A stretch of DNA of 64,000 nt, from positions 5,270,001-5,334,000 of the forward strand of contig OX597817.1 in assembly GCA_951406725.2 (NCBI GenBank). The letters run 5' to 3'. The DNA comes from Octopus vulgaris. Its lineage: Eukaryota. Below, one piece after another: positions 2,501-49,154 of this stretch. Positions within the stretch are counted from its first letter, which is position 1. Each line of letters opens with the position of its first letter. The position numbers and the translations under genes are program-made. The notes below the pieces were generated by a model. The model was given only the letters and a program-made list of their open reading frames with translations. It did not search any database and was not told the origin of the DNA.

Positions 2501-3200
2501 AGGCAGATGCTCACATACCAACTCTCTTCTCCCCTCCCTCGTCCTCACATAAGGAACTATAACCGATAAATATTTAAAATCATGATAAGCTAATCCCAGC
2601 AGATCTGAGACCGAACTGACCTTCAAAAGCAAAGGCTCAACTCTTATTGAGGTCACTCATAGTTAATGCACACACACTCACAAGTACTCACACACACATA
2701 CAGGCAGTAGCAGAATTGTTTACACACAGCTATATACACGCGCACACACACGCACACACACAGAGTAAACTTTTGTTTATTCCCTCTCATACTCTATCCT
2801 GGAAACAAACAGACATCTACACACACTCAGATATATGACTAATTCTCACGCGGACCCAGAGTAGACCTTGAAGACAGAAAACATGTCATTGAAGAGATCG
2901 TGATTAGCCACGAAAGAACTTTGGCCAACAAACAACAGAATAATTTTCTAACCAGCATATTTAACAAATGATCAATTATTTAGTTGGGTAGATGTTTAAC
3001 CAACTGACTTACACTTTAGAAGAGGAAATGAAATGAACCAATGCGTGTGTTATTATTATTGGTGTAATACCCTTCCCAAAACAGAAGCTTTGTTTCAACA
3101 CATGAACTCCCTTCCAGGATCTTGCAAATCAAGTACAAAAACGAAGTATATATATATATATATAAATCGAGTTGATCGAAGATTTAATAAAATTCCTTTA

Positions 3201-3281
3201 CTTTCGACATATGTTTCGAAGACAACATGGTTTATTCCAAAGGAATAAACGGTGTAAGATGCAATCTTCTCATCAGGAAAG
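3201..3281 (-). ncRNA. Type I hammerhead ribozyme motif (intact core)
   Basis: Minus strand reads ctttc-CTGATGA-gaaga...(inner hairpin gtttattcc/ggaataaac)...tcttc-GAAA-catatg-TC-gaaag. Stem I ctttc/gaaag, stem II gaaga/tcttc, palindromic stem III, GUC cleavage triplet. Confidence 0.85.
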
Positions 3282-3619
3282 AAAGGGAGCCTCTCTCAAC
3301 AACAAGACAAAATAATAATTACGATGACTGCCTACATGATAAACAAAACGTTAATTCATTCACCCATCGAAATATATATATATAACTCCAAGAGAGTTAG
3401 AGATTGTGAATCCAACCTACTGAGAGATAATATCTATCCACTATACTGCTGGTAGAATATCCAATAATTAATACACAAGTGTTTTTTCATATCATGGCAA
3501 TTGCATAACAGAGTAGTACCAAAATATCCCTCATGCAATAAAAATAACTTTAACAGCAGTAAAAATGTAACACATCGGTTATGAATACCGAAATCCATTT
3601 ACAATATGGTGTAATGAGA

Positions 3620-3960
3620 AATGGTGAAGCAGGCTCGTACTTTATCATTGAATTACTTAAAACCCTTATAGGAGGTTACAATTTGTTTACAGAGATGACA
3701 CCATTGACAAGGGCAATGTTTACAGGTGAATGAAAATGTTTGAAGACGGCGAAAACAGCATTGAAGAAAACCAACTGAGCCGAATCGTTAACAAGAGGAC
3801 ATATTTTTTTCCTCCATACAGATGTCACAACGCGTAGACTTCATGCACAACTGGTCTGTACATTACAGAAGATTGTGGAAGCCATTGGGTATGGCAAAAT
3901 GCGTGCAGCGTAGGAACCTTGGACGTTGGTGTCCAACTTGAAGGGTAGAAGCGTTGGTAA
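3620..3960 (+). mobile_element. Highly degraded mariner transposase N-terminal remnant
   Basis: Manual translation gives RRLQFVYRDDTIDKGNVYR*MKMFEDGENSIEE (mariner HTH-like) and IVEAIGYGKMRAA*EP (LGYxKxxARWVP-like). Confidence 0.55.
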
Positions 3961-4237
3961 AAGTCTGCTGTTACCTACTGAAAACGTTTGCAGACAATGA
4001 AGACTCATTTTCCAGAGTTAGTGATGCGGAACTAATTTTATGAGTAGGAAATATTTATGTGATAAAGCAAAAAATGTAAAACGGATATTTTAAAAACCGC
4101 CCAATGATCTGCATAGGACAAAAACTGTCAAAGTGATGCATGTAAGTTTTGCTACCAAGCTGAAAATATTGGTTAGTATTTAAAAAAAACATAGAAATTA
4201 CATCGAGATCTTTTACTTACTATATACCAATATTTAA

Positions 4238-45059: not shown

Positions 45060-45402
45060 TAAATAAAACGAAGTTAGGCAATGTTATCAATTTGGTTCAA
45101 TCTTGTACATTCGCCATTCTTTCCTCTTTTTATGTGCGAAAGATACAATACGGTTCTGCTCGAAGAATCCAGTGCCTATAATGTAGGGAGTTCGTATGTT
45201 ACTAAAGTCAGCGGCTGAGACTGTGAAACAAGTCACGGTTTTACTCCTGTGACACAACGTCAGATTTCATAGGAGATGAGACTCAACGTAGAAGTTCTAT
45301 CCTGCTATGAAACCAATGATATACAGACTTTACTTTCCATCCCACGTGTCTCCAGCTGTTCTGTTTAGTCCATTATGTCTTTCTATAGTGTGTATCCGTG
45401 AA

Positions 45403-45706
45403 GGCGCATGGCTCAGCGGTTACAGCGCCGAATTTACGACCGGGATGCGTGTTGTGTACTTGAACAAGACACTTTATTTCACGTCGCTCCAGTTCACTCA
45501 GCTGTAGAAATGAGTTGTGACGTCACAGGTGACAAGCTGCATCTGGCTCTTGCCTTCCCCTTGGATAACATCGGTGGCATGGAGAGGGGAGTCTGGTATG
45601 CATGGGCGTCTGCTGGCCTTCCATAAACTAACTTGGCGGGACTTGTGCCTCGGAGGGTTACTTTCTAGGTGCAATCCCATGGTCATTCGTGATCGAACAG
45701 AGTCTC
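45403..45706 (+). mobile_element. SINE family B (B-box region deleted)
   Basis: ggcgcatggctcagcggttacagcg...cacgtcgctccagttcactcagctgtagaaatgagttg...ctaggtgcaatcccatggtcattc. Confidence 0.85.
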
Positions 45707-48103
45707 CGGGTGTGTATCCTTATCTGCGCACGAATTTGCGTCTGTATCTGTGCGTGTCTGTTTGCGCTTTTCTATGTTTTGTATGACTGTTTTGCGTGTG
45801 TATATGAGTTTGCTTCCTATACCTATTGTATCCGTACCCTTTATATATTTAAATATTTTGTATTTATTTCTTTATTCAGGTCATTCATTTACGTATTTAT
45901 CCTTTGTAATCTAAGTGTCACGTCTGTTTTATGCCTTGATAGTAACTTAACATCTATGTTATTAATCGACACTCAATATTCTAATTCAGCGTGTTAGCAC
46001 AGCACCGACGAGAGTTTCTCCTCTTTCAATATCCGCCAGTATACATGTATCCGCCTCCCTATACTACGTGCCGTCTCACCATTGTAAGTTGTTGTCTTTT
46101 TCTGCACCACCCCTCAGTACACCGTATGCTACAGAATACATTCCTAGTCTTACAATAGGACGAATCCTCAGGCTAATAGACACATAGTAATAGACACACT
46201 GTGATTCGACAGAAAATCTTAATGGAACAATAACACCCTCCGCCACAACACTACACAACATGATGAGTAAAGATCAAATGGGAGAAAACATATGAGACAC
46301 AGATACAAACAGCATAATGCGTGAACCCCTGTACACACACAAAAGACACTCGTACACATGGTTAAAATGAAATGGGAAAAAGAAATAATACAGCGATAAA
46401 TAAGTAAATGAAAAAATAAATAAATCAATGATAATAAAGAAATGAATAAAAGTCACGGATACAAAGAGTATAGTAAGCAAACCCATAAACACATACAAAC
46501 ACACATACAAAACACATAGAGATGGGTACACACACAGGCACGTGCACACGCACGCACACACACAGACGCAAATGTATGCGCAGATAATGATATGCACCAT
46601 AGAAAGACAGAGTGGATTAAACGGAACAGGAGACATGTGGGATGCAAAGTCACTGAAGAGGTCACAGGTGTACGACAACAAAATTTCCAGACAATGGACA
46701 TAAAATAAGAACAGTAATAAACAAGTGAAGAACTAATATATAGTGCGTGTGTTTATTTGGCAAAAAAATGTCCATTCTAAAATATAAACAATATATATAT
46801 ATGTGTGGCTGAATGTATATATCTATATATTCAAGGTGGGGCGTACTGAGAGTAATACGCAGTAAATACCTATTTATACGTGATGAAATATTTGATTAAC
46901 AATGCCTGTTGCCGTTTAAAATGTAATGAGCGAAATAAAAGTAGAATGGGAGAAATAATTAAATAAGAAACTGGAACGAAAGAGACCATATTCTCAACTG
47001 TGTACCTGATAGAATGATCTAAAAAGGGTGATTTTAAAAATATTGGTATATACTTCGTTTCTTTAGTTATTCAGCAAGTTTTTATAATGAGCTTGGTCCT
47101 TATACGATAAAATACGAGATTCGTATTTGAAACAACTTTTATTCAAATAGCTTTTATTCAAAAACACAAACTTTGATACAGTAAAATCACTCTGAGAATT
47201 TTCTAATATCTGGTCTGACAAACGGTTTGAAATTTATGAGTGCTTATGTATGTATGTAGATATCAACACTGAATAGATGTTTAACAAAAGGGAAAACCGA
47301 AAAAGATGTTTCCTAATATTCGGAAATGCAAATCTTACAGTACCCGATAAAATATTCATAAGGACGTGCAAATAAAATTCTATTTGCTGATATAGTTTGC
47401 AGCTCTAGATTTCAGATTTCAGGCAAATGTAAGCAGACTCTTGTCTCCGAAATTACACTAAGAGTGCGAAATTTTGAAACGTACTTTCAAGGAATTCAAA
47501 TTTCACCCAGTATGTCATGTTCAAGTATGCATGTATGTACTTCCGCACTCTTTACGAATATATATATAGTAAGTTTAGAGTTTAAAATTTCTTTTAACTG
47601 GTTTTCATCAATAAGATAAGTCATGTTTTTGTTTTACATTAATATTGTTAAATTTTATTGAATTATTTACTGTTAATATAAATATATATATTTATTGTTT
47701 TATTATAATATCTAAATTTATTTATGTTATTTTTTTTTACCTGACTCATCAATATAGTATAGTTCTTGGCTGGTGTTTTCGGGTGAGTAAAGTCCATGAG
47801 AGTACATATATACATATATATATATATATATATATATATATATATATATATATTCTTTAACCACAGCATTAGAGATTTTTAGCGCTTATTTCTTGCAATG
47901 TAGGCGTTCTAACACACTAGTCATATTTAGTGATGATTATAGTTTTCCTTTTTGGTAACACTTTGCACACGGTAGTCTATATATAATTTTTTTTATATGT
48001 ACGTATGTATAATATATAGGAAGAATGCAAAAAAAAAAGACGAAGACAGGTGGTGTAGACAACAAACAGATGTATTAGTTTAACGCTCAGGAAGTGAAAA
48101 AGT

Positions 48104-48139
48104 CTTTAACGTTTCGAGCCTACGCTCTTTAACAGAAAG
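48104..48139 (-). ncRNA. Minimal hammerhead-like variant, probably inactive, in a short module at 48012-48205
   Basis: Minus strand reads cttt-CTGTTAA-a-gagc-gtag-gctc-GAAA-cg-TT-aaag; stems pair but the core is mutated. The module end (48015-48075) recurs inverted at 18338-18400. Confidence 0.45.
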
Positions 48140-49154
48140 GAACACAGAAAGAAACATAGAGAGAAAATAAGGAATGTCTAGTGGCTAGCGATCTAACATG
48201 GTGAATATATACATGTATATGTGTGTGTGTATATATGTATGTATGTATATATCTATACAGTGGCCGAGATAGAAATGCATTACTATACGTTATTGCAAGG
48301 ATGAATGGAGTAAGAAAGAGGGACATAGAGAAATAAGTGAAATTCATCTGGTATTCGAAACCTCTCATCAATGCAAAATATATTTGAGTCTCAGAATACT
48401 GAATATGTCTTGGAACTAAGAAAGAACTGATCAACATTTCACACACGCACATACACAGGTATCAACATATCTGATTGTACATAGAAATAGATAGATAGGT
48501 ATGTAGGTAGGTAGGTAGATAGATAGATAGATAGATAGATAGATAGATAGATAGATAGATAGATAGATAGATAGATAGATAGATAGATAGATAGACCCAT
48601 ATACGTAAACAGATGGAATTGAGTATATATATGTATATATATATGCTTATTTATTCATATGTAAATACACATAAATATTTATATACACACATGTGTTTAT
48701 GTGTATGTGTAGGTATGTATAAATATATGTATGCACATAAGTATTTGTCAGCGTACGTCTTTCTACCTAAGTATTTACACAGACACTCAAATATTTCGAA
48801 GTACTATATTATTTATAGATTTCTTTATTCATAGATATAAAGATATTCTTTTCTTATTCATATGTTATTAACTGTCGCTGTCAAACTCTACATTAGAAGA
48901 TACGTCTAAAATATTTGTTTTTGATGGCTCTTAAACATAATCGTTACGTTGTTTTATTTTGGCTTTTGTATTCTTTAAAAAGACGAATTGCACAACAGCT
49001 AACACCTTCCTTAATATTCTACTTACTCGGTATTTCTTAGATAAACTACTACTACTAATACAGCGTATAATACCGCTGCTAATGCTATGACTATTAATGT
49101 TTTGTATACTTCGTTTTTCTAATCCTAATTCTCATTCTTGTTCCACTGTAGTAT

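What the first reader, a model, noticed from the sequence alone, without database searches (positions are those of the whole stretch)
3148..48205. Multiple distinct hammerhead-ribozyme modules, mostly parked in (TA)n microsatellites
Seen: type I hammerhead folds with different stem sequences at 3201-3281 (GUC), 8159-8204 (GUA), 18650-18710 and 19413-19473 (AUA) and 15674-15718 (GUC, weak stem II), plus minimal variants at 31699-31731 and 48104-48139. Most have a palindromic stem III (catatg, caattg, cccggg, cg) and lie in short non-coding modules next to (TA)n. Established: Penelope-like elements and retrozymes carry type I hammerheads with palindromic stem III that can cleave as dimers. Inference: several independent, possibly uncatalogued families of non-autonomous ribozyme retroelements with (TA)n preference, mobilised by PLE RT/GIY-YIG proteins whose remnants are also in this window. 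Stems that differ in sequence yet stay paired around a fixed core suggest structural selection in the source elements.
Basis: partly seen in the sequence, partly recalled or inferred. Interest (0 to 1): 0.85.

Follow-up and report, generated by a model that had tools for sequence, protein, structure and literature searches.

The report
Penelope ribozyme ends, spliced-leader stubs
The hammerhead-shaped RNA motifs are real and sit at the ends of seven abundant jumping-gene families of a known kind, but one family occurs hundreds of times as precisely spliced stubs, which likely shows that these elements copy their own spliced messenger RNA and would explain why their complete copies keep an intron.

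Summary
Each marks a high-copy family with Penelope-like (PLE) insertion marks: fixed 3' ends in (TA)n, a tail and head-to-head arms. Five of seven are ends of protein-coding PLEs: three Hydra-type (3201, 8159, 15321) and two Neptune-type (31699, 48104). Only two (15674, about 360 nt; 18650/19413, about 465 nt) are non-coding circularly permuted retrozymes. The scan reported this general picture before on other DNA of this genome.

New here: the 8159 family has a GT-AG intron just before its hammerhead. It occurs both intron-retaining (502 exact matches) and precisely spliced (751), from three donor sites and in seven matching haplotypes. Spliced copies stop at an initiator-like site (82 of 82 older arms within 38 nt); intron-retaining arms run on (42 of 44). 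All 19 ORF-bearing copies with a visible junction keep the intron. So spliced sense RNA is likely a template that yields only short stubs, which bears on the open question of PLE intron retention. No RNA data or cleavage test was obtained.

The parts
3165..3371 (-). M1: 5'-truncated pLTR end of a Hydra-type PLE; hammerhead 3201-3281 (GUC); a short inverted remnant of the tail at its 5' end; (TA)n on both sides
   Evidence: longer copies run into a GIY-YIG EN (L047, L052, L060, L040; Pfam GIY-YIG E 0.0035, below the curated cut-off)
8066..8213 (-). M2: exon-2 part of the pLTR/5' leader of a Hydra-type PLE; starts at the first base after the splice acceptor (8213); hammerhead 8159-8204 (GUA); short 3' end in (TA)n
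8214..8324 (-). Piece of an unrelated repeat joined to M2 exactly at the acceptor; it ends where 4 of 5 inspected relatives continue with GTAAG (possible captured exon, or a microhomology switch)
   Evidence: junction unique in the genome; no M2 copy within 20 kb downstream of the best relative
7961..8346 (.). 22-bp direct repeats (7961-7982, 8325-8346), each followed by (TA)n, framing the M2 insertion; likely target duplication
   Evidence: sequence
15155..15438 (+).
   Evidence: EN with CNCRIKSKC linker upstream in one longer copy (L083/L194)
15465..15826 (-). M4: about one unit of an old, non-coding, circularly permuted ~360-nt retrozyme; decayed hammerhead 15674-15718 (GUC)
   Evidence: unit wraps round in 14 of 25 loci, inverted arm in 12 of 25; the few PLE protein hits in M4/M5 loci are separate neighbours where inspected
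18618..19696 (.). M5: two-armed head-to-head insertion of a non-coding ~465-nt retrozyme; hammerheads 18650-18710 (-) and 19413-19473 (+) (AUA); the + arm is interrupted by a tRNA-headed SINE at about 19061-19394
   Evidence: periods 460-469; tandem hammerheads 465 apart in 3 loci; SINE label recalled
31600..31811 (-). M6: pLTR end of a Neptune-type PLE; minimal hammerhead 31699-31731 with U4C core and GUU site
   Evidence: EN on the same strand mostly 3-4 kb upstream in 9 of 12 long copies
33870..34031 (-). Decayed Hydra-type GIY-YIG endonuclease remnant, no intact hammerhead downstream
   Evidence: tblastn E 3.6e-6 against the M1 EN
48020..48203 (-). M7: pLTR end of a Neptune-type PLE; minimal hammerhead 48104-48139 with family A6U core plus a private G8A
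   Evidence: 17 of 25 EN hits have this motif 0.3-1.0 kb downstream, linker CSRPRCRTC

Best explanation
These motifs are hammerhead-type folds in the ends of five protein-coding Penelope-like retrotransposon families and in two non-coding repeats that are likely mobilised by such elements, and the 8159 family also occurs as hundreds of precisely spliced stubs that are likely copies of the start of its own messenger RNA. Shown from sequence for that family: a complete unit of about 6-6.8 kb with an ~840-aa RT-EN ORF; an initiator-like TTCACTT, a 23-28-nt first exon, a 1.0-1.85-kb GT-AG intron, then the hammerhead, two fixed 3' ends, and the ATG about 60 nt past the farther end. Inferred mechanism: the GIY-YIG domain nicks (TA)n. 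The RT starts inside the RNA at the two tail sites of the 5' UTR, as shown in vitro for an anole PLE (PMC11167929), often from both strands, which gives head-to-head arms. On the normal spliced mRNA it reaches the 5' end after about 170-260 nt and leaves a stub with no promoter and no ORF. Only longer read-through RNA from tandem copies lets it copy ORF, promoter and intron, and most of those copies are unspliced. Intron retention would then be a filter on which templates give viable elements, not an inability to use spliced RNA. The 360- and 465-nt units are likely copied round a circle or concatemer by the same enzymes. The hammerheads likely cleave poorly and only as dimers or with protein help.
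For: Donor and acceptor in one natural copy in 23 held cases, introns 1010-1849 nt. Exact exon-exon junctions genome-wide: 160, 119, 466 and 6; exact intron-retaining acceptors: 65 and 437; reversed-pattern controls 0. The 119 junction was predicted from full-length copies before it was searched. Two donors 4 nt apart in the young subfamily and a third in the 3' UTR are all used with the same acceptor. The two young-subfamily junctions have no AG microhomology. Seven exon1/exon2/loop II haplotypes each occur spliced and unspliced, so the stubs arose repeatedly. 82 of 82 older spliced arms (62 insertions) share <=38 nt upstream of the junction, 75 of them <=28 nt, ending at TTC|ACTTC. Control: 42 of 44 intron-retaining arms share more than 38 nt, median 209 (Fisher p about 2e-31, arms not fully independent). 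0 of 82 run past the tail. 19 of 30 ORF-bearing loci show the junction, all intron-retaining. Of the first 28 insertions on contig C1: 16 spliced, 8 intron-retaining, 4 uninformative (8 of these classed from lists; the donor was not seen for 2 of the 16). EN links for M1, M3, M6, M7; circular permutation for M4 and M5.
Against: No RNA evidence was obtained, so the start site is inferred from where copies end and from one motif. In the young subfamily 3 of 27 spliced arms (2 insertions) extend 113 to at least 300 nt past the initiator, and 2 third-donor copies carry the ORF end, so spliced read-through RNA is also copied and the filter is leaky. No alternative spliced form was seen in M1, M3, M6 or M7, so generality is unshown. 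M3's link to an EN rests on one copy. The partner enzyme of M4 and M5 is not identified. Pair 10.1-11.1 of the M2 hammerhead is a mismatch in 7 of 16 variants and covariation is not significant. The window's own M2 copy is neither clearly spliced nor intron-retaining.
Confidence: 0.72

Rival explanations
1. All modules are independent non-autonomous ribozyme retroelements mobilised in trans.
For: True for M4 and M5. Short copies of M6 and M7 pile up at one 5' end and look like discrete elements.
Against: Longer copies of M1, M2, M3, M6 and M7 continue into EN or complete ORFs. Their downstream sequence does not recur upstream (0 tandem cases in M1, M3, M6, M7).
Confidence: 0.06
2. The spliced stubs descend from a few intron-less master copies that became SINE-like and amplified on their own, so splicing was rare and the 5' wall is simply the master's end.
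For: Stubs are uniform and numerous; once made, a stub inside a host transcript keeps the tail sites the RT needs.
Against: At least seven haplotypes and three donors each match their own intron-retaining counterpart; 5' ends are ragged below the wall (9-28 nt) and share no foreign upstream sequence.
Confidence: 0.12
3. The intron is lost by RT template jumps or DNA deletion at short homologies, not by splicing; the template could still be antisense or unspliced RNA (the hypothesis of PMC3846280).
For: The older junction has an AG on both sides; PLE insertions are full of template switches.
Against: Exact GT-AG borders at three donors; no AG homology at the two young junctions; loss is tied to a 5' end at an initiator-like site.
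Confidence: 0.07
4. The hammerheads are inert passengers and no longer cleave.
For: U4C/GUU (M6) and A6U (M7) cores, mismatched 10.1-11.1 pairs, monomer folds no better than shuffles for 5 of 8 motifs (z above -1.1). Cleavage was dispensable for insertion in vitro (PMC11167929).
Against: Change between subfamilies falls mainly on the free position 7, loop II and the 10.1-11.1 pair while the rest of the core stays fixed, though the variant list was selected on stem I.
Confidence: 0.3

Closest known systems
Hydra-clade PLEs (Craig et al. 2021, PMC8557442; section 11, passages, and supplement rows for Hydra-1_Obim)
   Same: C-terminal GIY-YIG EN, DKT, CxCX5C linker, CxxC and CxH around conserved E and N, canonical hammerhead, (TA)n targets. 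By eye the M2 ORF follows the printed Hydra alignment blocks.
   Different: Not the catalogued Hydra-1_Obim: four exact words from M1 and M2 are absent from the supplement. KWK instead of RWK; unit 6-6.8 kb instead of under 3 kb; a 5' UTR intron, which the supplement does not note for Hydra; spliced stubs.
Penelope of Drosophila virilis (PMC2377424 passages; PMC4209133 results)
   Same: Initiator in the pLTR, short first exon, 5' UTR intron ending just before hammerhead helix I, tail at the ORF start, partial tandems and inverted arms.
   Different: Intron 1.0-1.85 kb instead of 75 bp; different clade; those papers report spliced RNA but, in the passages read, intron-retaining genomic copies only.
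Poseidon_Ac of the green anole (Frangieh et al. 2024, PMC11167929, main text)
   Same: Two fixed 3' ends matching internal RT start sites; AT-rich targets; hammerhead at the pLTR-ORF border.
   Different: There the start sites are inside the ORF; here they map to the 5' UTR. No intron is discussed there in the text read.
Neptune-clade PLEs with minimal hammerheads (PMC4209133; clade features from PMC8557442)
   Same: M6 and M7: CX2-5CxxC linker (seen for M7), minimal GAAACGU core with a bulged base before stem II, mostly single truncated copies.
   Different: Family-wide U4C (M6) and A6U (M7) cores; one search for hammerhead plus A6U gave one twister paper, listing only.
Metazoan non-LTR retrozymes (PMC7229834 passages; bioRxiv 10.64898/2026.07.22.740005 abstract, introduction, passages)
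   Same: M4 and M5: non-coding tandem or permuted units with one type I hammerhead; PLE-type mobilisation.
   Different: M5 (465 nt) is longer than the roughly 220-390-nt units in the passages read; mostly short two-armed dispersed insertions rather than long arrays; circular RNA untested.

Membership tests
Type I hammerhead ribozyme | CUGANGA/GAAA/UH core with stems I-III | tested here: met
   M1, M2, M3, M5 window copies pass the strict descriptor; the M4 family keeps the core but the window copy is decayed
Type I hammerhead ribozyme | Canonical core in the minimal variants M6 and M7 | tested here: not met
   U4C in 42 of 57 M6 motifs; A6U in the seven commonest M7 variants; window M7 also G8A
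Type I hammerhead ribozyme | Covarying stems | tested here: inconclusive
   Stems differ across families; within M2 one pair changes on both sides, 89-111 of 500 shuffles reach the observed values
Type I hammerhead ribozyme | Self-cleavage | not testable with these tools
   needs an in vitro assay
EN+ Penelope-like element | Single ORF with RT and C-terminal GIY-YIG EN flanked by pLTRs | tested here: met
   M2 family: 821-852-aa open frames in 10 of 10 fetched loci, hammerheads on both sides in 5 of 10. M1, M3, M6, M7: EN upstream shown, complete units not fetched. Pfam support weak
EN+ Penelope-like element | 5' truncation, inverted 5' arm, optional tail | tested here: met
   20 of 62 spliced M2 insertions two-armed; no tail or arm seen in the M6 hits
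Hydra clade | DKT, CxCX5C linker, CxxC and CxH in EN, (TA)n target | tested here: met
   M2 all; M3 linker and EN motifs; M1 EN motifs, linker not seen
Hydra clade | RWK motif and length under 3 kb | tested here: not met
   KWK; 6-6.8-kb unit
Hydra clade | Placement in an RT phylogeny | not tested
   no reference sequences were held as data
Neptune clade | CX2-5CxxC linker before EN | tested here: met
   CSRPRCRTC in M7-linked ORFs; the M6 EN is 46-62% identical to them, its linker not read
Non-LTR retrozyme | Non-coding tandem unit with one hammerhead | tested here: met
   M4 about 360 nt, M5 460-469 nt; not met by M1, M2, M3, M6, M7
Non-LTR retrozyme | Expressed as unit-length circular RNA | not testable with these tools
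   no RNA-labelled run listed and no reads laid

The most novel reading that the evidence does not exclude
Because a PLE's RT starts inside its own 5' UTR, the spliced mRNA that makes the protein is a dead-end template that strews the genome with short hammerhead stubs, while only read-through RNA rebuilds the promoter. This would settle template polarity in favour of sense RNA and explain PLE intron retention. Much of the mass of solitary hammerheads in animal genomes would be leader retrocopies that record start sites, alternative donors and occasionally exons spliced in from neighbouring repeats, as possibly at 8214.
Probability: 0.55. Interest if true: 0.75.

Novelty: new variant of a known kind. 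Interest (0 to 1): 0.6.

Why it matters
PLEs are noted for keeping introns through an RNA step. Craig et al. 2021 (PMC8557442) call the significance unknown, and Arkhipova et al. 2013 (PMC3846280) proposed an antisense template to explain it. Hundreds of exact exon junctions in genomic copies, at several donors and in several subfamilies, argue that spliced sense RNA is reverse transcribed. Combined with internal RT initiation (PMC11167929), this gives a simple testable reason why complete copies keep the intron and why solitary hammerheads vastly outnumber full elements. The family has many intact ORFs, so the model can be tested in vitro. The rest of the finding is a dense but ordinary sample of known element kinds.

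Tried and rejected
Rfam scans gave no significant hammerhead match, so support comes from the descriptor and shuffles. RNA: no RNA holder listed, and no reads could be laid, so expression, start site, splicing in RNA and cleavage ends stay open. A non-templated G at the 5' wall (cap signature) was considered and dropped, because most such Gs come from the inverted arm. The idea that M2's two upstream forms were autonomous versus retrozyme forms was dropped once donor and acceptor appeared in one copy. A first pattern for the spliced upstream matched once only because it included flank. M6 as a 1.5-kb non-coding tandem was rejected: the region is a CA-rich 3' UTR leading to an EN. A source locus for the foreign piece at 8214 was not found. 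The upstream-extent numbers are inflated by simple repeats and inverted arms and were used only to pick long copies. One search had wrong coordinates and a mis-set stem III; both were redone. Literature: searches for spliced or intronless genomic PLE copies (listings only, except the papers named) and earlier scan notes showed no such report. Arkhipova et al. 2003 (Nat Genet) was not read and most subscription papers are outside the library; supplements of the bioRxiv preprint were not seen.
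Full report
Setting. The window is G000:C4:5270001-5334000 of a 2.8-Gb genome, rich in microsatellites, SINEs and LINE fragments. Earlier scan notes call it an octopus genome; I did not test that label. I name the families M1 (3201), M2 (8159), M3 (15321), M4 (15674), M5 (18650/19413), M6 (31699) and M7 (48104).

Observation. The motifs are at the stated places. 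The copies at 19413, 15674, 31699 and 48104 deviate: a stem I change, general decay, a U4C core with GUU, and an A6U core with a private G8A. Rfam gives no significant match. As monomers only M1 and the 18650 copy fold clearly better than shuffles (z -3.4 and -2.5), as expected for motifs whose stem III needs a partner (PMC4209133).

Families. Each module has 1688-3117 first-look candidates; 40 were scored and 25-30 loci fetched per search. 3' ends are fixed and abut (TA)n: 176 of 196 copies against 154 of 392 flank windows. There are two end positions in M1, M2, M3 and M5, one in M6 and M7, and no enrichment in M4. 5' ends vary and head-to-head arms are common. These are the PLE marks described in PMC8557442 and explained by two internal RT start sites in PMC11167929.

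Autonomous or not. Longer M1 copies run into a GIY-YIG EN with CxxC and CxH. One M3 copy runs into an EN with a CxCX5C linker. M2 belongs to a family with many intact ORFs: 10 of 10 fetched loci have 821-852-aa frames and 5 of 10 have hammerheads on both sides, 5996-6838 nt apart. The full-length copies are sister subfamilies of the window's copy. These three fit the Hydra clade by motif, apart from KWK and length; they are not the catalogued Hydra-1_Obim. For M7, 17 of 25 EN hits have the motif downstream and the linker is Neptune-type; for M6, 9 of 12 long copies have a related EN upstream across a CA-rich region. M4 and M5 instead wrap round: M4 in 14 of 25 loci with a period near 360, M5 with periods of 460-469 and tandem hammerheads in 3 loci. 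The PLE protein hits in their 55 loci were few and, in the one inspected, separate. They are retrozymes in the sense of PMC7229834. The window also holds a decayed Hydra-type EN at 33870-34031.

The intron in M2. Copies had two different upstream sequences meeting 9 nt before stem I. Longer copies hold both: a short exon, GT, 1.0-1.2 kb, AG, then the hammerhead exon. The second form is the exact exon-exon join. Exact counts are 160 spliced and 65 intron-retaining in the older subfamilies, plus 6 from a donor in the 3' UTR. In the young subfamily the same TTCACTT motif and a donor sit 1.1-1.85 kb before the acceptor; the predicted junction occurs 119 times. A second donor 4 nt upstream, noticed in a position-ordered sample, gives 466, against 437 intron-retaining. 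A 17-mer of the family hammerhead occurs 2809 times (control 2), so these patterns cover under half of it. Of the first 28 insertions on C1, 16 are spliced, 8 intron-retaining and 4 uninformative. Seven haplotypes occur in both forms.

The 5' wall. All 82 older spliced arms examined (62 insertions) share at most 38 nt upstream of the junction, 75 at most 28, ending at the TTCACTT motif; none passes the tail. Of 44 intron-retaining arms taken from the 65 matches, 42 extend more than 38 nt, median 209. In the young subfamily 24 of 27 arms stop within 31 nt and 3 go further. Of 30 ORF-bearing loci, 19 show the junction and all keep the intron; 11 are truncated, rearranged or unclassified. The layout matches D. 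virilis Penelope, where the start site is 46 bp before a 5' UTR intron that ends at helix I (PMC2377424, PMC4209133).

Mechanism. Shown: anatomy, both junction forms, the wall, the two 3' ends in the 5' UTR. From literature: internal initiation and AT-rich nicking. Inferred: the wall is the transcription start; stubs are cDNAs of the spliced leader; complete copies come from read-through RNA that is mostly unspliced; intron-less complete copies are rare or inactive (deleting the intron abolished reporter expression in Penelope, PMC2377424). This argues against an obligatory antisense template (PMC3846280, Discussion read in full) for this family. Short M6 and M7 copies also pile up at one 5' position, which may be the same effect without an intron.

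The window's M2 copy starts exactly at the acceptor and is preceded by about 110 nt of another repeat (298 candidates) that ends where 4 of 5 relatives read GTAAG; the closest relative reads ATAAG, which allows a microhomology switch instead. The junction is unique. I put exon capture by splicing at about 0.55.

Ribozyme function. Variation between M2 subfamilies falls mainly on position 7, loop II and the 10.1-11.1 pair, but covariation is not significant and the list was selected on stem I. Activity is untested; low, dimer- or protein-dependent cleavage is the expectation from PMC4209133 and PMC11167929.

Prior work and verdict. The scan already reported the mix of pLTR ends and retrozymes on other DNA of this genome. 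Its notes and four literature searches showed no report of spliced genomic PLE copies, within the library's limits. Papers seen: PMC4209133 and PMC11167929 main text (parts 1-2); PMC8557442 passages, section 11 and supplement searches; PMC3846280 passages and Discussion; PMC2377424, PMC7229834 and PMC13282606 passages (the last also a supplement search); the bioRxiv preprint part 1 and passages. The elements are new members of known kinds; the spliced-leader stubs are a new variant that makes a standing question testable. Interest 0.6.

Noticed in passing
window 56549-56635 (-): Old M2-related 3' end (77% identical) beside (TA)n, without an intact hammerhead.
   Followed up: partly
window 18338-18441: 3' end of an M7-type copy without the hammerhead.
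   Followed up: no
M5 unit, e.g. L136 and window 18930-18950: The 465-nt unit holds GTTCGAATC, a Pol III B-box-like motif (consensus recalled), on the hammerhead strand; no A box was identified. Its odd stem III with one central base resembles that listed for Hydra-1_oBim.
   Followed up: no
M7 family, L459-L483: Core CUGUNGA (A6U) is fixed while position 7 takes all four bases and the site is GUA or GUU; a possible natural core variant under selection.
   Followed up: partly
L404:1480-1800: Three spliced M2 leaders in tandem about 108 nt apart, each restarting at the initiator site after a short inverted piece.
   Followed up: no
L497, L504: Two more M2 copies begin exactly at the first base after the acceptor, like the window's copy.
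   Followed up: no
window 34445-35710, 39575-42220, 49589-50788: Long LINE-type RT frames; the first two look CR1/L2-like and the third R4/Dong-like (labels recalled).
   Followed up: no
window 6286-6723 (-): Tc1/mariner-like transposase fragment (label recalled).
   Followed up: no
window 38132-38299: Long perfect inverted repeat, part of an inverted SINE-like pair.
   Followed up: no
L370, L373: Asparagine-rich insert of variable length between RT and EN, as described for rotifer Penelope (PMC3846280).
   Followed up: no
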